Below are positions 1,469 to 58,080 of a DNA stretch of 59,231 nucleotides, piece by piece. This DNA is from a virus. Taxonomy: Duplodnaviria; Caudoviricetes. The DNA lies in IMG/VR virus record IMGVR_UViG_3300032212_000006, positions 1 through 59,231 of that record; one strand, given 5' to 3'. The notes under the pieces were generated by a model, which was not told the origin of the DNA, searched no databases, and saw only the letters and a program-made list of their open reading frames with translations. The translations under genes and the position numbers were made by a program. How positions within the stretch are numbered: position 1 is the stretch's first letter; every line of letters begins with the position of its first letter.

Positions 1469-2035
1469 ATGATTAAATGTATAATTTGTGCTGGAACAGG
1501 AAAAGTAGAAAATATAAATGGAGATAGTACTTGCCATAAATGCCAAGGTACTGGTTATCAAGATAATAGTGCCGTCGTGCCGAACTTAATCAGTGATTGT
1601 TGCAGTATGTTACATCGTGATGATGACGAAGTAATATGTCCAAAATGTCTTAAACCTTGTAACTGGGTACCTGAACCTAAGTGTAAAGTAATCAATCTAA
1701 GTAAGAATATGGAATCATCTGCGTGTCCTAATAAATTCTCATATAGTATGTCCAACCCTAATATTAAAACTACTGAACAAATAGTACATAAAGCTGTAAA
1801 TGACGAGTACCAACTAATTTTAGAATACGTGTTTAAGCATGGGTTATTGGACAGTGATGATTCAGGTATAAGCCACTCACAAGCGTTAATTGATACATTA
1901 AATACATTAGTTGAGCGTACTAATACATTCTTGAACGATATATGGCCTCAAGTAGATAAATTATGTATCCAAGACTATAATAATCTTAATGAATTAGCCA
2001 TGTTACTTACCAAATTGAGTAAAGCCAATAAGTAG
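1469..2035 (+). CDS. DnaJ-type zinc-finger (CxxCxGxG) protein
   Basis: CIICAGTG and CHKCQGTG plus SDCC...CPKC...C cluster; GGTG SD. Confidence 0.65.
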   Translation: MIKCIICAGTGKVENINGDSTCHKCQGTGYQDNSAVVPNLISDCCSMLHRDDDEVICPKCLKPCNWVPEPKCKVINLSKNMESSACPNKFSYSMSNPNIKTTEQIVHKAVNDEYQLILEYVFKHGLLDSDDSGISHSQALIDTLNTLVERTNTFLNDIWPQVDKLCIQDYNNLNELAMLLTKLSKANK

Positions 2036-2119
2036 TATCTCTATGTAAATTAACTAGTATGTTTACTTTAATTAATTTATATGGAGAATACTGGAGAGCA
2101 TAAATAACGGGGAAAATGA

Positions 2120-2353
2120 ATGGATGATATAAAAGCTATAAATACTCTTAAAAATAGACACCACTTTGGTACTTATATACCAAGAAGTATTGTGGAAGCC
2201 TTGAATTATAGAAATGGGCATGACATACGAATAATTACTGAGTTTCGTAAAGTATTGAATTACTTAAGATACATACTGAACTCTAAAGGCGAAGGAAAAC
2301 TTACAAGTAGTGAGTTACGATTTGTTGAAGATTTTAAGGAATACGAACTATGA
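2120..2353 (+). CDS. hypothetical protein
   Basis: GGGGA SD upstream. Confidence 0.6.
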   Translation: MDDIKAINTLKNRHHFGTYIPRSIVEALNYRNGHDIRIITEFRKVLNYLRYILNSKGEGKLTSSELRFVEDFKEYEL

Positions 2354-2541
2354 CTACGTACTATTTAATCTTGACAGCTATTGTAGGATCATCAGCTAAT
2401 GTAAGCACGTCTATGGGTGAATTAAACCTTTTAGAAGACTGTAAATCAGCAGGTGAGTTATGGGTAAAAACCATAAAAGAACAAAGACCTGAATTTAATG
2501 ATTCGTATTTCTTATGCGTACCATCCAGATATAGACTATAG
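2350..2541 (+). CDS. small exported or membrane hypothetical protein
   Basis: ATGA overlap; hydrophobic N-terminus; two Cys. Confidence 0.55.
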   Translation: MTTYYLILTAIVGSSANVSTSMGELNLLEDCKSAGELWVKTIKEQRPEFNDSYFLCVPSRYRL

Positions 2542-2548
2542 GTGAAAT

Positions 2549-2791
2549 ATGGCTAAGTTAAAAATATTTAGAGATAAAATAAATGAAGTACTAGATAGAT
2601 ATCCTGACGCAGATTTCATGGTAGGTGTACCTGGTATTGATGATGTCGCATTTTCTATCAATGAACATATTAATTTGAGCAATACTGATAACAGAATATT
2701 GCATTTGGTGGCACACCCTTCGCCTGAACAATTAATTGGTCATATGCAAAGCTTAAAAGACAATGGTAGAGATAGGACCAAAGATAATTAA
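2549..2791 (+). CDS. hypothetical protein
   Basis: AGGTG SD. Confidence 0.6.
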   Translation: MAKLKIFRDKINEVLDRYPDADFMVGVPGIDDVAFSINEHINLSNTDNRILHLVAHPSPEQLIGHMQSLKDNGRDRTKDN

Positions 2792-2815
2792 AGTCATGGT
2801 CATATGATATATATG

Positions 2816-2844
2816 TGTACAAGATGCTAATATTATAGTATTAT
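2816..2844 (+). promoter_or_regulatory. sigma70-like promoter TGTACA-N17-TATTAT
   Basis: Member of a genome-wide family with exact 17-nt spacing. Confidence 0.7.
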
Positions 2845-2865
2845 TATCCTGTAAATAAATATTAA

Positions 2866-2880
2866 TTGCTGTGAGGGCAA
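2866..2880 (+). promoter_or_regulatory. RBS-hairpin motif TTGCT-GTGAG-GGCAA
   Basis: Variant of the TCGTTGTGAGGGCGA motif with a compensated stem, 4 nt before ATG 2885. Confidence 0.6.
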
Positions 2881-2884
2881 AATC

Positions 2885-3391
2885 ATGAAAGCACTAGCTA
2901 AGTTTGCGTTATGTTCAAAGACTGTAACTATTCCTTATTCTGCCGTAGTAGAAATAACGTCTGATCAGTTTGATGACCCTGAATCTATTAGAGAAAAGCT
3001 ACAAAGCGTAGTAGTAGAACATGTGACAACTGGACGAAGTATACCAGTAGACTGGTTATATGTAGATGACGTATCTATACATACTTTGTTTGACAATGCT
3101 CCTAAAGATATAGTTTTAGGCGCAACTCCTTTTCCATTCATAATAAACTGCATAAATACTATAGACGTAGATTATGTAGTAGTCACATCAGTACGTAAAT
3201 TAGTAGGTACAATTGAAGTACCTAATGGATGTAAAGGTGGAGCTTTACGATCAGCTATATTAAATCAAGTTGAATCAGTGCTTCCTAAACGTGAATATAG
3301 AAACATTAAGCATGTATATTTCGGTGCTCAATTAAACGACATGATAGATACAGTAAATATGGTTACTAACAAACTGTCTATTCACAGATAA
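2885..3391 (+). CDS. hypothetical protein
   Basis: 168-aa ORF with promoter and GAGG SD. Confidence 0.7.
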   Translation: MKALAKFALCSKTVTIPYSAVVEITSDQFDDPESIREKLQSVVVEHVTTGRSIPVDWLYVDDVSIHTLFDNAPKDIVLGATPFPFIINCINTIDVDYVVVTSVRKLVGTIEVPNGCKGGALRSAILNQVESVLPKREYRNIKHVYFGAQLNDMIDTVNMVTNKLSIHR

Positions 3392-3441
3392 CCTATTGGC
3401 GATTGTATATACGCCAAGGATGGCTTAACTAAGGAAATAAA

Positions 3442-3642
3442 ATGAGTATTGAAGTTACAAATGACCATTTAGAGTTTTTAGACAAATTACAGCAAAGTGG
3501 AACAACAAACATGTTTGCTGCATCAGGTCGTATAGTAGAAAACTTTAATGTAGATAATTATCAAGCCGAACTTATTCTTAAATCGTGGATGAGAACATAT
3601 GCTGAAAGAAACAGAAATGGTGAAGTTAAAGACTACACTTAA
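3442..3642 (+). CDS. small conserved-type phage protein
   Basis: AAGGA SD; LDKLQQSGTTNMF motif recalls a widespread phage family. Confidence 0.65.
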   Translation: MSIEVTNDHLEFLDKLQQSGTTNMFAASGRIVENFNVDNYQAELILKSWMRTYAERNRNGEVKDYT

Positions 3643-3710
3643 ATACGTGTTTATTGTAATTGTAATTCTATTGAGTTGGACCGATATATGGGCGACGTAG
3701 TTAAATAAAT

Positions 3711-3739
3711 TGTACTAGGGCTCTTAACTGTAGTATAAT
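3711..3739 (+). promoter_or_regulatory. promoter TGTACT-N17-TATAAT driving a small RNA
   Basis: Perfect -10 box; predicted start about 3745-3746 coincides with the first base of the RNA stem. Confidence 0.75.
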
Positions 3740-3745
3740 AAAGTT

Positions 3746-3820
3746 TGATCTAGTCGAGGCGCGTCAACCGCCAATTGACGTTCCCTTCCTGAGCCCTCAC
3801 GCTAAGTCTCGGCTAGATCA
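3746..3820 (+). ncRNA. candidate 75-nt antisense small RNA
   Basis: 15-bp closing stem (3746-3760 with 3806-3820; 2 G-U pairs favour + strand), inner hairpin CGTCAA/TTGACG, C-rich unpaired segment, followed by TTTT; no ORF. Confidence 0.7.
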
Positions 3821-3876
3821 TTTTAATCGCTATATAAATCTATTAGCAGTTGTGTTATATAATAAGAGATAATATC

Positions 3877-4218
3877 ATGATAGAACAGTATATACCGATA
3901 ATTATTATAGTATTAAGCGCTTTAACAATTATTTTAGTGACTTACTTATTATATAACAGATACAAAACCTCTAATAAATATTCTCTATGGTATAACGCAT
4001 TACCTAACATACAGAGTGAATTGGAAATATTCAATAATAGAAATAATAACATTGTCGTAAAGGTAGTTCAGTGTTCCAGTGAATTATGCGGATATTTACA
4101 ATTTACTGTAGAAGATGAGATAGTATATAAAGCTCATTTTGTAGGTTCAGTGGAATTATCTATAACGTTAGATTTACTTAATAATCATAAGAGATATGAT
4201 AATTTAAAAAGGACATAA
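3877..4218 (+). CDS. membrane-anchored hypothetical protein
   Basis: N-terminal TM helix; ATG 3877 preferred over TTG 3850. Confidence 0.6.
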   Translation: MIEQYIPIIIIVLSALTIILVTYLLYNRYKTSNKYSLWYNALPNIQSELEIFNNRNNNIVVKVVQCSSELCGYLQFTVEDEIVYKAHFVGSVELSITLDLLNNHKRYDNLKRT

Positions 4219-4219
4219 T

Positions 4220-4417
4220 ATGACTGACGAAGCTAACTACATTAAATACTCAATAGATGATATTAATTTGATTCTAAATAATCAAAAACATTTGTCAATT
4301 CCTGAAATAGGTCAACTAAATAAACTACAAAATAGGTATAGCGAAGACCCAGAAAATTCAGTGTTAGCTGATCATGAAGAATTAATGATAACATTGCTAC
4401 TAAGAAAAATCAAGTAG
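4220..4417 (+). CDS. hypothetical protein
   Basis: AAGGA SD. Confidence 0.6.
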   Translation: MTDEANYIKYSIDDINLILNNQKHLSIPEIGQLNKLQNRYSEDPENSVLADHEELMITLLLRKIK

Positions 4418-4784
4418 CAATCATAATATTCTGAAATTTACCGTTAGATGTCCATTTTGATACGTAGTTTTGCTGAGATATTTGTACATCAAATATCATT
4501 ATTTCATTATCAGATAAATAAAATGAGTTTGGTATGTTTAAGTTTTTTATGACTTGTAGTTCATCAATGACCGCTTCTGAATCTAGCATGTGCGGCCATT
4601 CTGATAAATCATATACCCAAGAAAAGTACACTTTACCATTCTTTATGGTAGGTACTATATCTAAAGAATCTAATAAAGATATTACTCTTGAATGCAATCT
4701 ACATGAATGCCAATTACCTTCAGAATGTTTACCAGTATATCGTATCCAAACCAGAATTCTTGAATCTAAACTAGAAAATTTCAT
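4410..4784 (-). CDS. hypothetical protein, probably leaderless mRNA
   Basis: Fills a gap in the + strand run; own promoter (4819-4791) with -10 box 6 nt before ATG. Confidence 0.6.
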   Translation of the reverse strand: MKFSSLDSRILVWIRYTGKHSEGNWHSCRLHSRVISLLDSLDIVPTIKNGKVYFSWVYDLSEWPHMLDSEAVIDELQVIKNLNIPNSFYLSDNEIMIFDVQISQQNYVSKWTSNGKFQNIMIAT

Positions 4785-4833
4785 ACGATTATATTACTAT
4801 AATATATTAATCGTGTACATGCAGGAGATACTT

Positions 4834-5100
4834 ATGTATGAATATAAATCAATGGACCAACTGAGAGTTAGGTTATCGTCCATATATGATAGATTAGACG
4901 AATTATCATATCAAATGAGTAGAATATCGACTGAGCTTAATAATAGTGACCTAAATAAATATGACTCAGTAAAGAAGGCCAGTATAGTGGCAGAATATAA
5001 TGATATTAGTTCAGAAATAGAAAACTTAATAACAGAAGAATCTATATTAAGAGACCACTTAATGAATGCGATAAAAACTAATAGTTCAAGGGTTCATTAA
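4834..5100 (+). CDS. coiled-coil hypothetical protein
   Basis: AGGAG SD before ATG 4834; the longer 4534 start overlaps the - strand gene. Confidence 0.6.
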   Translation: MYEYKSMDQLRVRLSSIYDRLDELSYQMSRISTELNNSDLNKYDSVKKASIVAEYNDISSEIENLITEESILRDHLMNAIKTNSSRVH

Positions 5101-5165
5101 TATCGTTGTATACCAATGTAAAATTAGGTGATATAATATATTAATAATTTAAAACGGAGAATACT

Positions 5166-5447
5166 ATGAGCTGCAATTTTTGTAAAATTCAACATTGTAT
5201 GACTAAAGGATCAGTCACTACAGTACCTGGACGATGGGACATTAAAAAGGAAGCTCCTGGCTTTTATAACGTATATGTACACGATAAAGATACCATTATC
5301 GATACATGCTATAATGAAGCTTTAAATAAAGAGTTTTTAAAGCTTACTATTCCAAAAATCCCGACTAAATGTACGTGTCCTAAAGAGACTGAAACGAATA
5401 AAGTCTCTAATACAAGTAAAAAAGAAACTAAAAATGCCAAAAAATAA
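5166..5447 (+). CDS. hypothetical protein
   Basis: GGAG SD; promoter TATACC-N17-TATAAT at 5109-5137. Confidence 0.6.
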   Translation: MSCNFCKIQHCMTKGSVTTVPGRWDIKKEAPGFYNVYVHDKDTIIDTCYNEALNKEFLKLTIPKIPTKCTCPKETETNKVSNTSKKETKNAKK

Positions 5448-5616
5448 ACCTGTAGAAATCGTTGTAGCTAAAAAGGTAACAGGTTTACAATTTGGCACTT
5501 TAACAGTACCTAAAACTGATATAGGTTTATATGCATTACCTGGCGGCATACTAAAATCATATTCAGCATTGGTAAATGATCCATTAGTAATTAGACATAT
5601 CAACAAAGCGGCCTAA
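5434..5616 (+). CDS. hypothetical protein
   Basis: Overlaps upstream gene end. Confidence 0.5.
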   Translation: MPKNKPVEIVVAKKVTGLQFGTLTVPKTDIGLYALPGGILKSYSALVNDPLVIRHINKAA

Positions 5617-5686
5617 ATAAGGCAAAATCTAGTATGCTTTTACATGGACTATTGATCTATGTAAAGGTAAGTATTTGGGAGATGGA

Positions 5687-8023
5687 ATGTATTTAGCAAA
5701 AGATATTATAAGTGGGGCGCTAGATATGGCTCAATTGGGATACCATGTATTCCCTTTACTAGAGCGATGTAAAACTGATACTAATAAACGTGGCACACCT
5801 ATTGGTTGGAATCATAATAACCCTGATCATAAACATTCATTGCCTTCTACTACTGACTTAGATGAAATTATAGGTTGGGCTCATGACTATAAAGATATTA
5901 TAGGTTATGGAGTTAACCCACGTGGCCGACGTGCTATCGTATTAGATGTAGATGTAAAAGGTAATAAGGTAGGTGCTGCGTCATTAAAAGCATTAGTTAA
6001 AGATTTCAAATTAAGCCTAAATACATTTTGTGTAAAAACTAAATCAGGTGGATTACATTTATACTACTCGTATGATGGTGTACCTGAAGAATTCTATGTC
6101 AAAGGTACTGCTATAGACGGCTACAAAGATATAGATATACGTGCTGACAATAACTTTTTAAACGGACCATTCCCAAATGGTAATTATACGATTATTAAGA
6201 ATGAGTCATTATCTAGTTTACCTTCCAAATTAATTGAAGAATTGCCTTTACAACCTATAGCTAAAGGTTTACAGGTAGTAGTCAATAATAAAGACGCTGA
6301 AGCATTAGAATATAAAGATCCTTTACTTAAAGGTTTGATACCTGATGTTATACCTTTAGGCGAACGAGACAACACAATTATAAGATTAATTGGTAGTTGG
6401 GCAAGAAAGCATCCAATAGAAACAACTCTTCAATTAACTAAAGCGGCTATTATAGCTTGTGAAAAAGATCCTAAAGACAAAATATCTATAAACGACTATA
6501 TACCAAAGATTGAGTCGACTTATGAAAAATTAGCATTTAGGCCACTAACACCGGATATGTTGGCTTGGATGGAGGACCATTTAATTTTGATACCTGAGCG
6601 CCGAAGTGTTTATATGCGTAATCTCCCTGCACATAAGGCTCTTATAAGTAAAGACGCTGCTATTGACAGATATAAAAACTGGATATACTATTTAGAACCT
6701 CCTGAAGGTAGTAACTCTAAAAAGAAATCAAAGGTACAATGTTTTCCTGCTTGGATGGAGAGTCCTAGACGCCAAGATTGCAGATCATTTGGATATTATC
6801 CATCAGATGAACGAATAGTATATTGTGATGTACAAGATTGCGATGTAGTTAACACTTATTCTGCACCGTTTCAAGAATTTAAGTATAATGAAAAAACATA
6901 TGATGACCATATATCTAAATTTCTTGAATTTTGTGATTACTTATTCGAAGATCACGCACAATTTATGTTAGATTGGGTAGCTCACCAGGTACAAAAACCT
7001 AATGAGAAACTATCTTTTGCTCCAGTAATGTACTCAGAGGCTAGAGGCGTAGGTAAAAACTTATTTTTCGATATAGTTAAAAATCTAGTAGGTAAATGGA
7101 ATACTACAGAAGCTGAAGTTACTGAAGTGGTAGATAAGCATTGTGAGTTTGCATTACGCCATCATTTGGTACTTATAAATGAGGCATCTATTGACGCACG
7201 AGATAAGCGTGCACTAAATACAAGACGTAATATATTAGAGACACTAAAATCAAAAATTACGGAAAATATGCAAACAGTAGAACCTAAATACATAGGTAGG
7301 TTTAATGTTAGATCATATGTAAATTACATAGTGGCAACTAATAATTTAGACGCTATTCCTATGGAGCAACAAGATAGACGATTCTTTGTAATGGATTTAC
7401 GCGCTAAAAAGATGGATAAAGAGTTTTATGAGCTACTATGGGAAATGGCTAGAAGTCCGCTAGATGAACCTGAAGTATTACATAGATCATACGCCTTAAG
7501 GCAGTATATGATGAAGCGTGACGTATCAAAAGTAAATAGAGGTGATGTAGCCGTATTTACTGAAGCTAAACAAGAAATGATAGACGCAAATAAATCGTCA
7601 GAGCAGATAGATCTTGACGAAGCTATAATGAATCATTACTCTATATTTAGATCAGATGTAATTACCAAAGAACTGTTTGATTGGTATGTAAGTAATAAGA
7701 TGCCTCGTGGATCTAGATTGAGTTCTGGAGCAATACGAGATTTATTTAAGATATACTTCAAACCTATAAGAATAAACGAAACATCTGGTAGAGCTAAACA
7801 AGTTGCCGTACAATTGCCAGATAGAATGGTAGATGGCATGATAATGAATGCCGAAACAAAGAAATGTGGTATGTTTACTGTAAGACAACATTATGGGCTT
7901 GATAAGTCTGATGTAGCATTCGTACGTGGCGTGTATGGAAGAGCATTAGATGCAACTAAGCATGATTATAAAGAACCTGTCGAAGACATCGGTGATGTTA
8001 AAAATGAAAATAAATCCAAATGA
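5687..8023 (+). CDS. bifunctional primase-polymerase fused to SF3/D5-like helicase
   Basis: Prim-Pol motifs VFPL, VLDVDVK, TKSGGLHLYY, DIR; PriCT-like GERDNT; Walker A RGVGKN; Walker B LINE; TNN sensor. Confidence 0.9.
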   Translation: MYLAKDIISGALDMAQLGYHVFPLLERCKTDTNKRGTPIGWNHNNPDHKHSLPSTTDLDEIIGWAHDYKDIIGYGVNPRGRRAIVLDVDVKGNKVGAASLKALVKDFKLSLNTFCVKTKSGGLHLYYSYDGVPEEFYVKGTAIDGYKDIDIRADNNFLNGPFPNGNYTIIKNESLSSLPSKLIEELPLQPIAKGLQVVVNNKDAEALEYKDPLLKGLIPDVIPLGERDNTIIRLIGSWARKHPIETTLQLTKAAIIACEKDPKDKISINDYIPKIESTYEKLAFRPLTPDMLAWMEDHLILIPERRSVYMRNLPAHKALISKDAAIDRYKNWIYYLEPPEGSNSKKKSKVQCFPAWMESPRRQDCRSFGYYPSDERIVYCDVQDCDVVNTYSAPFQEFKYNEKTYDDHISKFLEFCDYLFEDHAQFMLDWVAHQVQKPNEKLSFAPVMYSEARGVGKNLFFDIVKNLVGKWNTTEAEVTEVVDKHCEFALRHHLVLINEASIDARDKRALNTRRNILETLKSKITENMQTVEPKYIGRFNVRSYVNYIVATNNLDAIPMEQQDRRFFVMDLRAKKMDKEFYELLWEMARSPLDEPEVLHRSYALRQYMMKRDVSKVNRGDVAVFTEAKQEMIDANKSSEQIDLDEAIMNHYSIFRSDVITKELFDWYVSNKMPRGSRLSSGAIRDLFKIYFKPIRINETSGRAKQVAVQLPDRMVDGMIMNAETKKCGMFTVRQHYGLDKSDVAFVRGVYGRALDATKHDYKEPVEDIGDVKNENKSK

Positions 8024-13608: not shown

Positions 13609-13676
13609 ATCACTGGGATTTAATATACAACGAAATAAATACGTAGTATAATATATCTATAAGTGAGGGAAATGTT

Positions 13677-14066
13677 ATGGCTAAAATAGATCAGGTAATC
13701 GCTAAATACTTAGAGTTTAGGGCTGAGTTAGACGCGAAACGTAAGCAATTTAAACAAGATGAGAAAGACTTAAAATTTAAGATGGAACGGTTATCTATGT
13801 GGATGGCCGGTCAATCTAAAGGTTTGGGTGTAAATAGTTTTGCTACAGATAGTGGCACTGCTTTTAAGCATACCAAGAAGGTTGTTAGGGTAGCTGATTG
13901 GGAACAAGTTCTCAAATTTATGTTAGAAACTGATAATCTTCAAATGTTAGAAAAACGTATCGGAAAAATTAATACTCTGGATATAATCGATGAAACAGGC
14001 GAAATTCCTCCAGGCGTAGAGTATTTTGAAGAGATTGAATTTCAAGTTCGTAAACCAACAAAATAG
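13677..14066 (+). CDS. conserved-type phage replication-module protein
   Basis: Promoter TATACA-N17-TATAAT (13624-13652); coiled-coil N-terminus; GTAF...DW...PPGV pattern. Confidence 0.7.
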   Translation: MAKIDQVIAKYLEFRAELDAKRKQFKQDEKDLKFKMERLSMWMAGQSKGLGVNSFATDSGTAFKHTKKVVRVADWEQVLKFMLETDNLQMLEKRIGKINTLDIIDETGEIPPGVEYFEEIEFQVRKPTK

Positions 14067-28753: not shown

Positions 28754-29071
28754 TTAAATTATTACAGTTTCGAAAACTTCATTACCTTCTTCGTCTAATT
28801 CATAGTCTCTTAGAGCATGTATGCAAAAAGATACGGCGCCATCCGTTTCTGCTATCAGTTTATGGGCCTTATGTTTCTTTATGTTGATGACGTCTCCCTG
28901 ATGGTATATCTTATCCGGCTCCCCTTCCACAATAACCCTGACAGAGCCACTGCCTACCAGATGGGCATGATCAAATTTATGAACATGCTGCAACATAAAA
29001 TCACCTTTACCTGCGGTGTACATGATTGTCTTTATGGCTATGTTATCTATTTGAGTTGTTTTACTTAGCAT
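28754..29071 (-). CDS. cupin-fold protein
   Basis: HVHKFDH...GSV...GDVINI...H cupin motifs. Confidence 0.75.
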   Translation of the reverse strand: MLSKTTQIDNIAIKTIMYTAGKGDFMLQHVHKFDHAHLVGSGSVRVIVEGEPDKIYHQGDVINIKKHKAHKLIAETDGAVSFCIHALRDYELDEEGNEVFETVII

Positions 29072-32400: not shown

Positions 32401-33988
32401 CATTAGAGTCATACAAGGTAACGGCTGTTATAAATTCTGAATCAGTAGTCTTCTTATATAATACTGACTGAGACTGTAAATATGTAGGCGCTTTAGTCCA
32501 CGTAACTGTTATACCAGGTAGTATTGTGCCATCTTGAGATTCATATAGATCAGCCGTACCTGCTGTAGCATTAACAGACGTGGCTACACTCATAGACGTA
32601 TAATCAGGTAAGCTAGACGTTGGAGGTATTGGATACTCATTAGGTAACGACTGATCGTATATTGTAGCGAAATACTCTTCTACTACTACGCGAACCTCAC
32701 CTTCTCTAACTTGAGTAAGTGATACTATTCTAGCCTCTTTACTAGTCCAGCCAGGACTAGGATGCGTTATATCAACAACATCCCCAATACTACATTCAGA
32801 CGCTTCTATAGTAGATGTAAATGCCGCTCGTAATAGGTTTCTAGAACGTCTAAGTACAAACGAAGCTATATCAAACGCTCTGTATATATCTGTAACGCCT
32901 GACAGCTGTATTGTAGTTTCTAATAATCGTCCGTTGTCTTCTGTCCTAAATGCAGACGATTCAGCTATTACATAATTTTCCCTGTAGTCATATTGAGGAT
33001 CTGGAAACGTACACTTAACTCTATTAAATCTATTCTTTAAATCAGCTGAAGATATATTCCATTTACCTAACATATTGGATTCATCGAATGTAAAAGTAGA
33101 CGCAGTCGCCTTTTCTAAACTAACTTTGAATTGGCCGTTTTCAAAGACTAAAGAACCTCTACATGTAGCTAGAATGAGTTTTATATTATCAAATATCCTA
33201 GTAGCTGGATTAAGTATGATATCACACGTATATCTAGTGTGAGCAGGTCCACCTGAGTAAGACGTAACAGAATCATTACAGTATGCGGCCTCGTCTAAAA
33301 ACGACTGTAAATGTATTTCGGTGCCAGATACACCTAAACCGTATCTAGTATTAGTTAAGTAATTATATAATACGTTTATTGGATTATTGCTATATATGGT
33401 AGTAGACGTTATTAAATCATATATCTTTAATCCTTCAACTACAACTTCAAAATTAGGTAGCCCTCTCCAAAGGTCTTTCTCCCAATCTAACTTAATAACA
33501 AAATACATTGTGCCATCGAGTCTATGCGCAACTGTCCATTCAGGATCCGTCATAAGAGTCGATGACGTTTCGGGTATAGTACCAAGATGGTTTTCTACTG
33601 TTACTGCAGTAGCAAATTTAGAATCTGTAGATATGTCATCATCTATGTAAAGGTCGGTAATGTTACTGCCTTCGCCCTCACATATTACAGCTACAACGTA
33701 TAATGAGTCTGACGATTCATATGCGTGTATTATATTTACGCCCACTCTACGTGTTCCGTAAATAATTTTTATAGGTTCAGATATTGACGAAACGTTTACA
33801 AAGACACTATTTATAGGGTCTTCTATACCTAATAGGCCAGTTATAAAGTCTTGAAGGTTTTGGCCAGCATCTTGTAACTCATCTACAAACCCGTCCCAAT
33901 CTAGTTCTAGTAATTCACTGCCGGCGTCTAGTATATTTTGTCCGAATCCACCTACATCATCTTTAAAATCACTCCAACTATAACCCAT
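29417..33988 (-). CDS. tail tip / host-specificity protein (gpJ-like)
   Basis: IIYGTRRVG, ICEGE, SNNP..LY.YLTNTRYGLG, FN3-like segments, ITASQIAANT repeats. Confidence 0.88.
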   Translation of the reverse strand: MGYSWSDFKDDVGGFGQNILDAGSELLELDWDGFVDELQDAGQNLQDFITGLLGIEDPINSVFVNVSSISEPIKIIYGTRRVGVNIIHAYESSDSLYVVAVICEGEGSNITDLYIDDDISTDSKFATAVTVENHLGTIPETSSTLMTDPEWTVAHRLDGTMYFVIKLDWEKDLWRGLPNFEVVVEGLKIYDLITSTTIYSNNPINVLYNYLTNTRYGLGVSGTEIHLQSFLDEAAYCNDSVTSYSGGPAHTRYTCDIILNPATRIFDNIKLILATCRGSLVFENGQFKVSLEKATASTFTFDESNMLGKWNISSADLKNRFNRVKCTFPDPQYDYRENYVIAESSAFRTEDNGRLLETTIQLSGVTDIYRAFDIASFVLRRSRNLLRAAFTSTIEASECSIGDVVDITHPSPGWTSKEARIVSLTQVREGEVRVVVEEYFATIYDQSLPNEYPIPPTSSLPDYTSMSVATSVNATAGTADLYESQDGTILPGITVTWTKAPTYLQSQSVLYKKTTDSEFITAVTLYDSNAESYKITGVDVGSSYNIRVLSTNAAGYSSSADMPGSVNVQGKTENPTSPTGMAVNNETGSVRLTWNSIPDLDYHITEVHASASNNRASAILVGTSSEGTFVHATVDNLYYWIIHKDSTLHYSNNWFPVSATAGILGGPNAPDYSNLTNAPTSISDINANEGSTLVNVTDNLIPSTSNIGGFGNVFFTSNVIAGGSANDGEIRIQGNTYYHPDGTKRALGTSDTTLYTPYEAAITATTFFIMYTNTAPHARFGGVSTDWGDSTTELRFCIVIYNAINNTWQAVNNANTGYAFTPIATDALVARGSKTSGTGGIDSLQSFVGVNQNLPDDGATVGATWGANIVSQPADESLLNVYSSIRDYTKYTGIDINAASGIAEIVPFKINNDTATADRWYRIAQIQLTSIYSTCNLVGWLAFGASSRFENIKTQVNMTFTNTTPAEAFITPQLDFNGDDLSSIIKVYIDTSTSPDTANIYVNLQSFDGLIGELSILRTYASASLKFWQLGEYLGEVYAAPGTLQTFTLNRGVEDAATIGAVIGSNLTGSFTEAEANTRFNAGSINGNKIVANTVTALEIAANTITASQIAANTITASQILSGTITANEITVSTLSSLSANIGAITAGTIDGITVTGGTVRTSSATTRVELDGTANELQVYVGGAVVASVGKKTLTDGDALISAQNGTANSIAGYFSSSSDTKPALWAINESQPLFTTMLVSTDSYLAHAMEIECRDRALHIYPNGGLAAGNGLESTVIIDTDITTNSAAIEIAMGANGIGRGIDIKYNGGYGLAVYPTDGIGFEGAGIWIAGRGGSSAPTHNYLDDALTLIYPGAITMNEDGRMYLRQKESNGSLISTSNEWNEVFTKRSEIGPDSFPAITVGAYQYGDEFGGSNSSNTGMIKLGEVMITKSGTYRCGLIFTFNEGKNNGTAYARIYKSGSTHGTLRTATVSGSIYVEQDLVFSAGEKAQVYGYETSNDGSMSASVTLQVAQSSLLLPGKLV

Positions 33989-46306: not shown

Positions 46307-46653
46307 TAATCGACGGCCTCTGACTCAGCAGAGATAACAGGGAAAAATTCACCGTCAACTACATCTTGCGAACTACTCGAATCGTCTAGAGCCCCTGGCT
46401 CTTGAGACTTATCCGCAATCACTTCAGTAGAAGGAATAACTCGAAGCACGCCGTGATCGTGTTTTATACTTCCTTTAACTTCCATAGATTTGAGTTCGGG
46501 CTCTACGTACTTAGCAATAGATTTATGGCAATCCAGTTCTACGCGTTCGTCTTGAGTTGCATGCGCAAGTTTGGCCATAGCCATCACAGGGTGATAGTTA
46601 GGGTAACTTTTTTGCAACATAGACAGAAGTCGGTTATCTTTGGCTTTACTCAT
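46306..46653 (-). CDS. terminase small subunit (putative)
   Basis: Abuts terL; P...MA...IAKYVEPELKSMEV. Confidence 0.7.
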   Translation of the reverse strand: MSKAKDNRLLSMLQKSYPNYHPVMAMAKLAHATQDERVELDCHKSIAKYVEPELKSMEVKGSIKHDHGVLRVIPSTEVIADKSQEPGALDDSSSSQDVVDGEFFPVISAESEAVD

Positions 46654-52426: not shown

Positions 52427-52525
52427 AGTCAAGTGGCGGAATTGGTAGACGCAGCCTCAGTCGACGATTAGGTGTAGAAGAAACGTAAGGACTACACGTT
52501 GTAGGTTCGAATCCTACCTTGACTA
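52427..52525 (+). tRNA. tRNA-like RNA (Leu-type class II scaffold) with non-canonical anticodon arm
   Basis: Acceptor AGTCAAG/CTTGACT, D arm TGGCGGAATTGGTAGACGC, T arm GTAGG-TTCGAAT-CCTAC; no 7-nt anticodon loop; no encoded CCA. Confidence 0.7.
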
Positions 52526-52531
52526 CTATAT

Positions 52532-52649
52532 GGTGATAAGTTGATCGGTAACCAGAAAGCCCGAGACCGCACCCTGACACCCTTCGGGTACACAGGCATA
52601 AAACTAGGAGCGGCGTAATGGATAACAGTAGGTTGGCTTATCACCTCCA
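52532..52649 (+). ncRNA. 118-nt structured RNA ending in stem-U-CCA
   Basis: 15-bp closing stem GGTGATAAGTTGATC/GGTTGGCTTATCACC then TCCA; inner C-UUCG-G hairpin. Confidence 0.65.
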
Positions 52650-52658
52650 AATTTAAAA

Positions 52659-52675
52659 ATCGTTGTGAGGGCGAT
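52659..52675 (+). promoter_or_regulatory. RBS-hairpin motif ATCGTTGTGAGGGCGAT (also near 52864, 55058, 57791, 2866)
   Basis: Repeated directly upstream of start codons; stem overlaps the GAGG SD. Confidence 0.7.
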
Positions 52676-52858
52676 ATGTCATACACAGAAAATAACTTCT
52701 TAGATGATTTAAAGACGGAATTGATAGAAGATAATCCAGAATATAAGATTCTTCTTGACTATATTGAAGGGCGTATTAAACAGGCTGTGCAACATACGCT
52801 TGATAATATTGAGTTTGCTACTAAAGAAGATATTCAAGAGATGATTGATAGACTATAA
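52676..52858 (+). CDS. acidic hypothetical protein
   Basis: Follows RBS motif. Confidence 0.65.
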   Translation: MSYTENNFLDDLKTELIEDNPEYKILLDYIEGRIKQAVQHTLDNIEFATKEDIQEMIDRL

Positions 52859-52879
52859 ATAAATCGTTGTGAGGCGAAT

Positions 52880-53182
52880 ATGTACGACATAGAATATACA
52901 AGCATTCATGGTATTTGTTTTGATGAAGGTCAAAGCGGTAATTGTGGTCTTGAGTGTCGAGGATTACTATCTAACCAATGTGAAATTGAAGACGAGATGC
53001 TTGAATCATGCTCATTCAATGAGATATACGATACAGGTGAGTTTATTGATTACTTAATCGATAAGTTTATTGGCGAGTTTAGAATGCAGATTTTTATGCA
53101 ACAAACGAAGATTGAGTTTGATATAAATAAACACCTTGAAAATATGAGAAATGGTGCCGTTGAACCTAAACGTATAGGATGA
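52880..53182 (+). CDS. Cys-containing acidic hypothetical protein
   Basis: Follows RBS motif variant GTGAGGC. Confidence 0.65.
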   Translation: MYDIEYTSIHGICFDEGQSGNCGLECRGLLSNQCEIEDEMLESCSFNEIYDTGEFIDYLIDKFIGEFRMQIFMQQTKIEFDINKHLENMRNGAVEPKRIG

Positions 53183-54761: not shown

Positions 54762-54826
54762 GGAGTGAGTGTACGTTAAATTTATTTTAACTTGTGTAGT
54801 AGCTAGTTCGTGCACTCACTCCTCCA
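54762..54826 (+). ncRNA. 65-nt hairpin RNA ending in stem-U-CCA
   Basis: 14-bp stem GGAGTGAGTGTACG/CGTGCACTCACTCC then TCCA. Confidence 0.65.
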
Positions 54827-55047: not shown

Positions 55048-55077
55048 TAAGTAATTAATCGTTGTGAGGGCGATATA

Positions 55078-55308
55078 ATGAATATTAAACACGATGTAAA
55101 AACAGTATCTGACCATGAAATAACTCTAAGCGGTGAAGATATAATTGAGTTAATCAATCTATATATCCATGTAGAACTAAAAGGTGCTAAAGTGCCTAGC
55201 GATGCCACTGTAAAGTTCTCAGTTCCAGGTGGTGGAGACTATTCTAACCAAAGAGTAGATATAGATAAGGATAACAATGTAATCGTATCTTGGTCAGATA
55301 TGTCATGA
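55078..55308 (+). CDS. hypothetical protein
   Basis: Follows RBS motif; VPGGGDYSN. Confidence 0.65.
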   Translation: MNIKHDVKTVSDHEITLSGEDIIELINLYIHVELKGAKVPSDATVKFSVPGGGDYSNQRVDIDKDNNVIVSWSDMS

Positions 55309-57079: not shown

Positions 57080-57303
57080 ATAATTTCGCAGAATTCTTTG
57101 CTGAGTATATGAGTATAAATCCTAATGCCGAAGGAGATCGTATCATATACCAAATTAATAATCGCACATTGACTGTAAATGATTTTAAAGAGCTTCTTAC
57201 TATGTATGACTGTGAACACTGCAAACATGTAAGAAAAGAACAATCTGATTACCCATGTAATAAATGCAATAGTTACGATATGTTTGAGGTACGTATAAAA
57301 TGA
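57076..57303 (+). CDS. small Cys-rich protein
   Basis: CEHCKH...PCNKC; ATGA overlaps. Confidence 0.6.
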   Translation: MNNFAEFFAEYMSINPNAEGDRIIYQINNRTLTVNDFKELLTMYDCEHCKHVRKEQSDYPCNKCNSYDMFEVRIK

Positions 57304-57731
57304 TACTAGATATAGTGACAAATAAAAAGGAATTATCAAAAGTTTGTATGCAGGCTATAGACGTAGACACAGCAAAAATAGTTGGCGATGATTTATTAGA
57401 CACAGCAAATAGCATATATGATAGTTGTGCAGGTTTAGCAGCACCACAAATAGGGCATAGTTCAAGGATTGTAGTTGTCAAATTAGATGATGGGTTTGAA
57501 TTAATGATAAACCCTCAATACATAACAAAATCCGGTAAGCGACAGAATGGAAAAGAAGGTTGCCTATCTAGACCATCGACTATTGAAAATAATGTCAGTG
57601 TTAAGCGATATTACAGAATAAAAATCAAATACGTAGATAAAGATTTTAAGATAGTCGTTAAGAAGTTTAAAGGTTTTCAAGCTAGAGTCATTCAACATGA
57701 GATAGACCATTTAAATGGTATATTAATATAG
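57300..57731 (+). CDS. def: peptide deformylase
   Basis: All three motifs: GLAAPQIG, EGCLS, QHEIDHLNG. Confidence 0.95.
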   Translation: MILDIVTNKKELSKVCMQAIDVDTAKIVGDDLLDTANSIYDSCAGLAAPQIGHSSRIVVVKLDDGFELMINPQYITKSGKRQNGKEGCLSRPSTIENNVSVKRYYRIKIKYVDKDFKIVVKKFKGFQARVIQHEIDHLNGILI

Positions 57732-57810
57732 GACCGTGAATTTTCTTATTTACATTGAGATAATTACATAGTAATATAAGTCTATATAATATCGTTGTGA
57801 GGGCGAATTA

Positions 57811-58080
57811 ATGGAATCAATTTGGAAGTATCCGCTAGACATACAAGACAATATATCTATTATGGTACCTGAAGGCGCCAAGTCTTTATGTATAAAGACT
57901 CAAAATAACATACCTTGTTTGTGGATGATAGTGAATACTTCATCTGCTAAGCTAGAAGAGTTAAAGCTTAAAATTTATGGAACTGGTCACAACCACGATT
58001 TTATTTTAGGTGAATACATAGACACATTCTTGATTAATAATGATAGTCTTGTGTTCCACGTATTTGAAGTACAGTCATAA
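57811..58080 (+). CDS. conserved-type small phage protein
   Basis: IWKYPL...LW..V...IYGTGH...YI.TF...LVFHVFE; promoter TTTACA-N17-TAATAT 57749-57777 and RBS motif. Confidence 0.7.
   Translation: MESIWKYPLDIQDNISIMVPEGAKSLCIKTQNNIPCLWMIVNTSSAKLEELKLKIYGTGHNHDFILGEYIDTFLINNDSLVFHVFEVQS

What the first reader, a model, noticed from the sequence alone, without database searches (positions are those of the whole stretch)
3711..3824. Candidate phage small-RNA regulon: a 75-nt RNA complementary to a repeated RBS motif
Seen: a strong promoter starts at a 15-bp stem enclosing one hairpin and an unpaired C-rich segment TCCCTTCCTGAGCCCTCACGC. GCCCTCAC (3793-3800) is the exact complement of GTGAGGGC at the ribosome-binding sites at 2871, 52665, 55064 and 57797 (near match at 52869; GTGAGGGA near 13663). 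Known: P1 C4 and P4 CI RNAs are similar-sized structured antisense RNAs, but act on targets in their own operon. Inference: one trans-acting RNA could switch several dispersed accessory operons together. The seed is only 8-9 nt and one incidental match occurs inside the tail-tip gene (about 33674), so chance is not excluded.
Basis: partly seen in the sequence, partly recalled or inferred. Interest (0 to 1): 0.82.

Follow-up and report, generated by a model that had tools for sequence, protein, structure and literature searches.

The report
Candidate phage small RNA, targets unproven
An uncultivated bacterial virus carries what looks like a real gene for a tightly folded 75-letter RNA, and its exposed loop matches a repeated ribosome-landing site of several viral genes, but that match could still be chance.

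Summary
At 3746-3820 (+) an ORF-free, GC-rich island folds into a 15-bp closing stem, a stacked hairpin and a 24-nt unpaired C/U-rich stretch (-32 kcal/mol, z about -5, 0 of 200 shuffles). It starts at the predicted +1 of a promoter belonging to a 13-member phage promoter family (TGTAC[AT]-N17-TAnnAT) and ends in UUUU. All three wobble pairs favour the + strand. GCCCTCAC (3793-3800) is the exact complement of GTGAGGGC in the RBS hairpins at 2871, 52665, 55064 and 57797.

- The match is nominally unlikely: about 0.005 expected per 75 nt, and 48 of 2000 composition-matched shuffles hit at least 4 of 5 motif genes.
- An accessibility-corrected energy test shows the real sequence does no better than shuffled C/U-rich sequences.
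- Many sites inside coding regions hybridise better than the RBS motifs.
- No relative carrying the element could be retrieved, so co-variation could not be tested. No RNA data exist.
- Distant relatives carry promoter-proximal panhandle leaders directly before their primase gene, which strengthens a cis-leader rival.
- Rfam has no match, including C4-type models.

Verdict: probably a real small RNA or leader-derived RNA. A regulon of RBS hairpins is my leading reading at about 0.35. The scan had not found this on other DNA.

The parts
3710..3739 (+). Promoter: -35-like TTGTAC (3710-3715; family word TGTACT 3711-3716), 17-nt spacer after the family word, -10 TATAAT (3734-3739)
   Evidence: One of 13 well-placed members of the TGTAC[AT]-N17-TAnnAT family. 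The looser pattern gives 19 matches against 7.87 +/- 3.03 expected, and 0 of 100 shuffles reach 19. The same promoter type occurs in relatives G001, L005 and HHU4.
3746..3824 (+). Candidate small RNA (75-nt fold plus UUUU)
   Evidence: MFE -31.8, z -5.14, 0 of 200 shuffles. The + strand folds at -31.8 against -26.2 for the - strand. No ORF overlaps it. Its 60-nt GC maximum of 0.62 is in the top 0.23% of genome windows. The start is inferred from two family promoters whose ATG begins at the 7th nt after the -10.
3746..3760 (+). P1 5' arm (pairs with 3806-3820; 15 bp, U.G and G.U wobbles)
3761..3781 (+). P2 hairpin (7 bp, loop CCGCCAA) stacked on P1
3782..3805 (+). Unpaired C/U-rich segment UCCCUUCCUGAGCCCUCACGCUAA, with mini-hairpin AGC/GCU presenting the loop CCUCAC
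   Evidence: Unpaired probabilities are about 0.9 for 3782-3791 and 3795-3800.
3793..3800 (+). Seed GCCCUCAC, the complement of GUGAGGGC
   Evidence: duplexes
3806..3824 (+). P1 3' arm plus UUUU (possible, probably leaky, intrinsic terminator)
   Evidence: Read directly from the sequence. The tool's simple terminator scan does not list it because the enclosed part exceeds its 8-nt loop limit.
2866..2880 (+). RBS hairpin TTGCT-GTGAG-GGCAA before gene 2885-3391. This is the best predicted target and the first gene of the operon that ends just upstream of the RNA.
   Evidence: (rank 1 of 111, -11.5 with accessibility)
52660..52674 (+). RBS hairpin TCGTT-GTGAG-GGCGA before gene 52676-52858
   Evidence: (rank 4)
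52864..52877 (+). Variant RBS hairpin (GTGAGGC, one G fewer) before gene 52880-53182; weak predicted pairing
   Evidence: -10.6; rank 62 of 111
55059..55073 (+). RBS hairpin before gene 55078-55308
   Evidence: (rank 7)
57792..57806 (+). RBS hairpin before gene 57811-58080 (DUF7352)
   Evidence: (rank 6)
13663..13669 (+). GTGAGGG at the RBS of gene 13677-14066 (7-nt match, no hairpin predicted)

Best explanation
3746-3820(+) is a gene for a small structured RNA of a virulent-looking siphophage. Host RNA polymerase starts at a phage early-type promoter, and the first transcribed base is the first base of a 15-bp closing stem. That stem, together with the UUUU that follows, ends at least part of the transcripts. 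The stem protects both ends, while a 24-nt C/U-rich strand stays open and presents CCUCAC in a small loop.

I propose (inferred, not shown) that this loop kisses the GUGAG loop of the shared RBS hairpins. The duplex then spreads to U.G + GUGAGGGC, covering the Shine-Dalgarno GAGG and lowering translation of the first cistron of the operons at 2885, 52676, 55078 and 57811. The effect would be weaker at 13677 and 52880. The RNA uses the same promoter class as its targets and is short, so it would accumulate faster and act as a delayed brake on these early genes.

Shown: the anatomy, the strand bias, promoter family membership and the complementarity. Inferred: transcript ends, binding, and the direction of regulation.
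For: Structure: z -4.84 and -5.14, with 0 of 200 shuffles each.

Strand: + folds at -31.8 against -26.2 for -. All three non-Watson-Crick pairs are G.U on the + strand.

No ORF overlaps the element, and it sits in a GC island in the top 0.23% of genome windows.

Promoter: the family is enriched, 19 against 7.87 +/- 3.03 with 0 of 100 shuffles. There are 13 well-placed members, and the ATG falls at the 7th nt after the -10 in two leaderless cases, which places +1 at 3746. Of the 13 promoter-downstream 80-mers, only this one has z below -3.

Motif: GTGAGGGC occurs 6 times against 0.49 expected.

Complement:
- 0.005 expected per 75 nt.
- 48 of 2000 composition-matched shuffles reach -17 kcal/mol on at least 4 of 5 motif genes.
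- The four exact-motif start regions rank 1, 4, 6 and 7 of 111 with accessibility and 2, 3, 7 and 8 by hybrid energy.
- The seed is in a predicted open loop, and the target is in a hairpin loop whose stem co-varies in the 2866 copy.
Against: - All four exact targets are copies of one repeat, so the support amounts to a single 8-nt event found after the fact.
- Shuffled C/U-rich segments score as well on the 111 start regions: best score 43 of 89, mean of best five 26 of 89, number at -7 or better 43 of 89.
- Genome-wide, sites inside coding regions pair better, for example -26.8 at 28919-28950(-) against -21.2 and -20.9 for the motif sites.
- There are only four U after a stem whose base is A/U-rich, so termination may be weak. 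The next gene (3877) has no family promoter of its own.
- Relatives L005 and G001 have promoter-proximal panhandle RNAs that are leaders of the primase gene.
- The RBS-hairpin motif is absent from all seven relative loci examined and from G001/G002.
- There is no homolog of the RNA in 13 sources totalling 256,491 bases.
- Similar RBS-like hairpin words in 9 unrelated viral loci come without a CCCTCAC on the same strand. Those loci are fragments.
Confidence: 0.35

Rival explanations
1. Cis-acting 5' leader. The promoter at 3711 drives the operon that begins at 3877 and may run on to the replication genes. The panhandle would be a 5' stabiliser, a processing site or a leaky attenuator, and the match to the RBS motif would be chance.
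For: Gene 3877 has no family promoter between 3821 and 3876, and its SD would be transcribed only from upstream. Only UUUU follows an A/U-rich stem base. Relatives place a family promoter plus a panhandle RNA directly before primase: L005 6262-6345 (-40.7 for the 149-mer, z -2.37, 4 of 200) with the SD inside the closing stem, and G001 (z -4.29, 0 of 200). In this phage, promoters 52389 and 54483 are also followed by structured RNA before the first gene.
Against: Unlike L005, the structure here does not touch the downstream SD or start, which lie 56 nt further on. The pairing of the open strand with its own downstream leader is weak: -6.1, and the 3877 start region ranks 106 of 111. A simple 5' stabiliser does not need a 24-nt open C/U-rich strand. 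There is no sequence or model similarity to the relatives' leaders.
Confidence: 0.3
2. A real small RNA whose partner is something else: host mRNAs, a host small RNA, or a protein (decoy or sponge). The phage RBS match would be incidental to a generally anti-Shine-Dalgarno-like C/U-rich strand.
For: Any C/U-rich 27-mer pairs about as well with purine-rich start regions. There are two C/U-rich blocks (UCCCUUCCU and CCCUCAC), and only one is explained by the motif. [quoted passage not shown] Regulation of Gene Expression' read).
Against: The host is unknown, so nothing could be tested. A 20-nt word of the open strand has no exact match in 185,579 species genomes.
Confidence: 0.2
3. Not an RNA gene: only the terminator or RNase III-type processing hairpin of the upstream operon (2885-3642), or a DNA-level inverted repeat.
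For: It lies 104 nt after the stop of 3442-3642 with no other hairpin in between. P1 and P2 stack into about 22 bp.
Against: A full family promoter ends 6 nt before the stem. Both mismatches of the 15-bp repeat are G.U on the + strand only, and the - strand folds 5.6 kcal/mol worse. No other copy exists in the genome.
Confidence: 0.08

Closest known systems
P1/P7 c4 antisense RNA (Rfam C4 family)
   Same: Similar size. A closing stem encloses a hairpin plus open segments. The complementary bases are presented in loops and pair around a ribosome binding site to block translation (function as described in PMC12197685, section 7, read). Details of the c4 fold and its RNase P processing are recalled, not checked here.
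   Different: No match to any Rfam model at E <= 10. The candidate targets lie in other operons up to about 10 kb away around the genome ends, not in the RNA's own transcript. The RNA's own downstream gene is one of the worst predicted partners, rank 106 of 111. The phage looks virulent and has no antirepressor context.
P4 CI RNA
   Same: A small structured RNA made from the very start of a phage transcript and acting by complementarity (recalled, not checked here).
   Different: CI acts on sites in its own transcript to cause termination. No such sites are seen here.
Trans-acting base-pairing small RNAs with C-rich anti-SD seeds, and mobile-element examples such as SviR of the Vibrio PLE satellite
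   Same: Own promoter, stem plus U-run 3' end, and an open seed that would cover the SD of several mRNAs. SviR lowers translation of phage ICP1 targets (abstract of 10.1101/2022.04.08.487710 seen).
   Different: Here regulator and targets would be in the same virulent phage, and the targets would share one repeated RBS hairpin. Only four U at the 3' end. No chaperone data.
T4 RegA / RegB shut-off of early genes
   Same: Same logic only: one factor recognises a short purine-rich word at many early ribosome binding sites (recalled; the T4 review PMC3014915 was seen in the search listing only).
   Different: Those factors are proteins. None of the 30 early-region proteins scanned against Pfam matched an RNA chaperone, RegA-like or RegB-like family.
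Promoter-proximal panhandle leaders of related phages (L005 6262-6345; G001 about 46650-46510, - strand)
   Same: Same promoter family, structure beginning at +1, a closing stem around an inner hairpin, and C-rich open bases.
   Different: Those abut the primase start (in L005 the SD is inside the stem) and have no U-run. No detectable sequence or model similarity.

Membership tests
C4 antisense RNA (Rfam) | Match to the family covariance model | tested here: not met
   cmscan of 3650-3900 against all 4227 Rfam 15 families gave 0 matches at E <= 10. The whole window at gathering score gave only a tRNA hit at 52427-52525.
C4 antisense RNA (Rfam) | Targets lie downstream in the RNA's own operon and cover the next gene's RBS | tested here: not met
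   Best duplex with 3821-3900 is -6.1. The 3877 start region ranks 106 of 111.
C4 antisense RNA (Rfam) | Maturation by RNase P, and an immunity or antirepressor context in a temperate phage | not testable with these tools
   No RNA data. The defining feature itself is recalled.
Trans-acting base-pairing small RNA | Own promoter with +1 at the RNA's 5' end | tested here: met
   By sequence inference only.
Trans-acting base-pairing small RNA | Intrinsic terminator at the 3' end | tested here: inconclusive
   A 15-bp stem is followed by UUUU. The consensus scan lists no terminator in 2500-5500 because the stem encloses 45 nt.
Trans-acting base-pairing small RNA | Accessible seed complementary to several mRNAs beyond chance | tested here: inconclusive
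   For: (48 of 2000). Against: (43 of 89; 26 of 89).
Trans-acting base-pairing small RNA | Seed conserved and co-varying with its targets in relatives | not testable with these tools
tRNA / tmRNA | Cloverleaf detected | tested here: not met
   ARAGORN found 0 genes in the window. No Rfam tRNA hit at this place.
SD-sequestering 5' leader (as in relative L005) | The structure includes the SD or start of the next gene | tested here: not met
   The fold ends at 3820. The SD-like AAGAG is at 3864-3868 and the ATG at 3877.

The most novel reading that the evidence does not exclude
A virulent phage uses one 75-nt RNA as a master brake. Its CCUCAC loop kisses a GUGAG loop that the phage has copied onto the ribosome binding site of the first gene of four to six early operons. 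A single RNA would then shut down a dispersed set of early genes together, an RNA counterpart of the protein-based early shut-off of T4.
Probability: 0.3. Interest if true: 0.75.

Novelty: new variant of a known kind. Interest (0 to 1): 0.48.

Why it matters
Known phage antisense RNAs (c4, CI, sar, OOP) act on their own or an overlapping transcript. Known trans-acting phage small RNAs mostly hit host genes (PMC12197685, two sections read). A phage RNA that co-regulates several of its own scattered operons through a shared, structured RBS tag would be a new regulatory layout. It would also be a compact, portable RNA switch (tag plus regulator) for synthetic biology.

Even without the regulon, the window shows a well-defined promoter family and several promoter-proximal structured RNAs in a little-studied phage clade related to Acinetobacter phages. 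That makes the question directly testable with reporters.

Tried and rejected
Known families: Rfam at gathering score and at E <= 10 on 3650-3900 gave nothing at this place. ARAGORN found nothing.

Relatives:
- blastn of 3400-4300 against 50,697 phage records: no match.
- IMG/VR scans with primase, the open-strand word, the 16-nt motif (5 single hits, none in an RBS context), the capsid protein, the 168-aa neighbour and a degenerate 17-nt motif.
- One search gave 86 stretches, every one of the 80 listed with a single match. I examined 78 of them (L141-L218). 19 of 78 have an ATG within 9 nt, which is about chance once near-identical loci are collapsed. 0 of 78 are related to the window by tblastx. 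0 of the 9 loci examined further have CCCTCAC on the motif strand.
- JGI metagenomes: one 1438-nt contig that does not reach the region.
- Species genomes: nothing.
- The closest capsid relative, G001 (74%), has a primase only 27% identical and no motif.
- A single-sequence covariance model found only itself in 13 sources.
- Local alignment with the G001 leader scored 13, against shuffles at 14.7 +/- 2.2 (838 of 1000 as good or better).
- HHU4 shows no repeated RBS word and no Rfam hit in its first 30 kb.

Expression: no RNA holder listed. The only run is the probable source DNA sample. Its contigs show no variants over 2000-8000.

Earlier scan notes: no look-alike in other windows.

Rejected ideas:
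- A C4/CI-like cis target downstream.
- An antisense transcript at 33672-33682 as a better anti-motif: no promoter or fold was seen by eye.
- A phage RNA chaperone or RegA/RegB-like protein: 30 early-region proteins scanned against Pfam matched no such family, though most have no family at all.

Supplementary files of papers were not consulted.

Full report
WHAT THE WINDOW IS. The 59,231-base window is a whole IMG/VR virus record rated 100% complete. The one run that holds it, probably its source, is labelled a microbial-mat metagenome. GC content is 31-45% in 2-kb windows. Genes run on the + strand at 52-59 kb and 1-22 kb (early and replication genes: primase, DNA polymerase, helicase, a carbamoyltransferase) and on the - strand at 22-52 kb (structural genes and small genes). 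The nearest named phages are Acinetobacter phages HHU4, MD-2021a and Effie, and Xanthomonas phage Xp15, at 36-38% DNA polymerase identity; the three Acinetobacter phages also have the best capsid matches, about 65%.

THE OBSERVATION. It is correct.
- The 234-nt gap between genes 3442-3642 and 3877-4218 has no ORF.
- From 3746 to 3820 the + strand folds into a 15-bp closing stem, with a 7-bp hairpin stacked on it. A 24-nt open strand, UCCCUUCCUGAGCCCUCACGCUAA, follows, in which a 3-bp mini-stem presents CCUCAC as a loop. UUUU comes next.
- The fold is far more stable than shuffles (z -4.84 and -5.14, 0 of 200 each).
- The - strand folds 5.6 kcal/mol worse, and every non-Watson-Crick pair is G.U on the + strand, so this is an RNA-level feature of the + strand.
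- The element is a GC island in the top 0.23% of 60-nt windows.

THE PROMOTER. TGTACT-N17-TATAAT at 3711-3739 belongs to a family.
- TGTAC-N15-19-TANNAT occurs 19 times against 7.87 +/- 3.03 expected, and 0 of 100 shuffles reach 19.
- 13 copies with the 17-nt spacing (11 with TGTAC[AT], 2 with TTTACA or TATACA) sit in front of genes in the right direction.
- In two of them the ATG begins at the 7th base after the -10, giving leaderless mRNAs at 46653 and 4784 on the - strand. This places +1 of the 3711 promoter at 3746, the first base of the closing stem.
- The same promoter type is found in relatives: G001 has 4 copies; L005 has 7 and HHU4 has 8. It is therefore probably the host-polymerase promoter used by this clade.
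- Of the 13 promoter-downstream 80-mers, only this one has z below -3. The next best is -2.33.

THE RBS MOTIF. GTGAGGGC is over-represented: 6 occurrences against 0.49 expected. However, the four RBS copies are one 15-17-nt repeat, TCGTT-GTGAG-GGCGA. The copy at 2866 has the form TTGCT-GTGAG-GGCAA, whose stem changes keep the pairing. Each copy precedes the first gene after a family promoter or after promoter-proximal non-coding RNA. The hairpins are weak, -4 to -6 kcal/mol, and not distinguishable from shuffles by energy.

IS THE COMPLEMENTARITY MORE THAN CHANCE?
For:
- 8-mers complementary to the 16-nt motif core are expected 8.84 +/- 3.72 times in the whole genome on both strands. That is 0.005 per 75-nt RNA, or 0.0013 per 24-nt open strand.
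- The match falls in the predicted loop.
- 48 of 2000 composition-matched shuffles of the open strand reach -17 kcal/mol on at least 4 of the 5 motif genes, and 32 of 2000 reach the observed mean of the best four.
- The motif genes rank 1, 4, 6 and 7 of 111 start regions with accessibility and 2, 3, 7 and 8 by hybrid energy. The two imperfect copies rank 23 and 62.
- The best target, 2885, adds short flanking helices that reach the start codon, 16 bp in all at -20.9. It is the first gene of the operon that ends just before the RNA.

Against:
- The four hits are one event.
- Outside the motif's own antisense strand, the genome has 10 such 8-mers at 7 places, which is no more than expected.
- Shuffled C/U-rich strands do as well on the 111 start regions: best energy 43 of 89, mean of best five 26 of 89, count at -7 or better 43 of 89.
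- Sites inside coding regions pair better than any motif site.
That figure is my estimate.

COMPARATIVE EVIDENCE. None could be obtained for the RNA itself. The collections I could scan hold only distant relatives. Those relatives lack the motif and the RNA.

They do show something relevant. In L005 and G001 a family promoter is followed at +1 by a panhandle RNA that runs up to the primase start. In L005 the closing stem contains the SD. This makes a cis-leader reading of the present element a serious rival. That is more so because gene 3877 has no family promoter of its own and only four U follow an A/U-rich stem base. Against that rival, the present structure ends 56 nt before the next start, does not touch its SD, and pairs poorly with its own downstream leader.

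COMPARISON WITH KNOWN SYSTEMS. The element works most like the c4 RNA of P1/P7 in shape and in the proposed way of blocking an RBS through loop-presented bases (PMC12197685, section 7 read). It fails the two membership features I could test: the Rfam model and targets in its own operon. It is better described as a candidate trans-acting base-pairing RNA of a virulent phage. A 2025 review of phage small RNAs, of which I read two sections, lists none that co-regulates several dispersed operons of its own phage through a shared RBS tag. I ran two literature searches and saw nothing of that kind in the listings. This is not proof of absence.

VERDICT.
- Observation: confirmed.
- A real small or leader-derived RNA: likely, about 0.85 summed over the first three readings.
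- The specific regulon: about 0.35.
- Cis leader: 0.30.
- Another partner (host mRNA, host small RNA or protein): 0.20.
- Terminator, processing site or DNA repeat only: 0.08.
- Interest: 0.48.

Noticed in passing
window 2816, 3711, 13624, 52389, 54483, 57749 (+); 51155, 50292, 49400, 47890, 46688, 28467, 4819 (-): A 13-member promoter family, T[GTA]TAC[AT]-N17-TAnnAT, often with TAG or GTG just before the -10. It is shared with relatives G001, L005 and Acinetobacter phage HHU4.
   Followed up: partly
window 46653 (-) and 4784 (-): Two family promoters have the ATG starting at the 7th nt after the -10, suggesting leaderless mRNAs. The second drives a - strand ORF (4410-4784) embedded in the + strand early region.
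   Followed up: no
window 52427-52525: Rfam tRNA hit (40.6 bits, 99 nt) that ARAGORN does not call. It starts 2-3 nt after the predicted +1 of the 52389 promoter and has no encoded CCA.
   Followed up: partly
window 52532-52649 and 54762-54826: Two long-stem RNAs ending in ...AUCACCUCCA and ...CACUCCUCCA. The first resembles the 3' end of 16S rRNA, including the anti-Shine-Dalgarno; the 16S sequence is recalled, not checked.
   Followed up: no
window 33672-33682 (-): An 11-nt copy of the RBS motif (TGTGAGGGCGA) on the sense strand inside the 1523-aa tail gene, with no start codon after it.
   Followed up: partly
L005 6227-6353; G001 46685-46459 (- strand; L139): In two distant relatives a family promoter is followed at +1 by a stable panhandle RNA that runs up to the primase start. 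In L005 the closing stem holds the SD.
   Followed up: partly
window 3737-3709 (-): The reverse strand of the small-RNA promoter also reads as a weak promoter (TATACT-N17-TACAAT) pointing into gene 3442-3642 in antisense. This is probably a by-product of the near-palindromic TGTACA word.
   Followed up: no
window 57300-57731 (+) and 57811-58080 (+): A peptide deformylase gene (Pfam E 1e-34) lies just before the promoter and RBS hairpin of a DUF7352 gene.
   Followed up: no
L148 about 6590-6640; L181, L187, L189: Unrelated viral contigs carry the same hairpin word (AATTGCTGTGAGGGC[AG]A) 0-2 nt before an ATG. The count of such cases is about what chance gives.
   Followed up: partly
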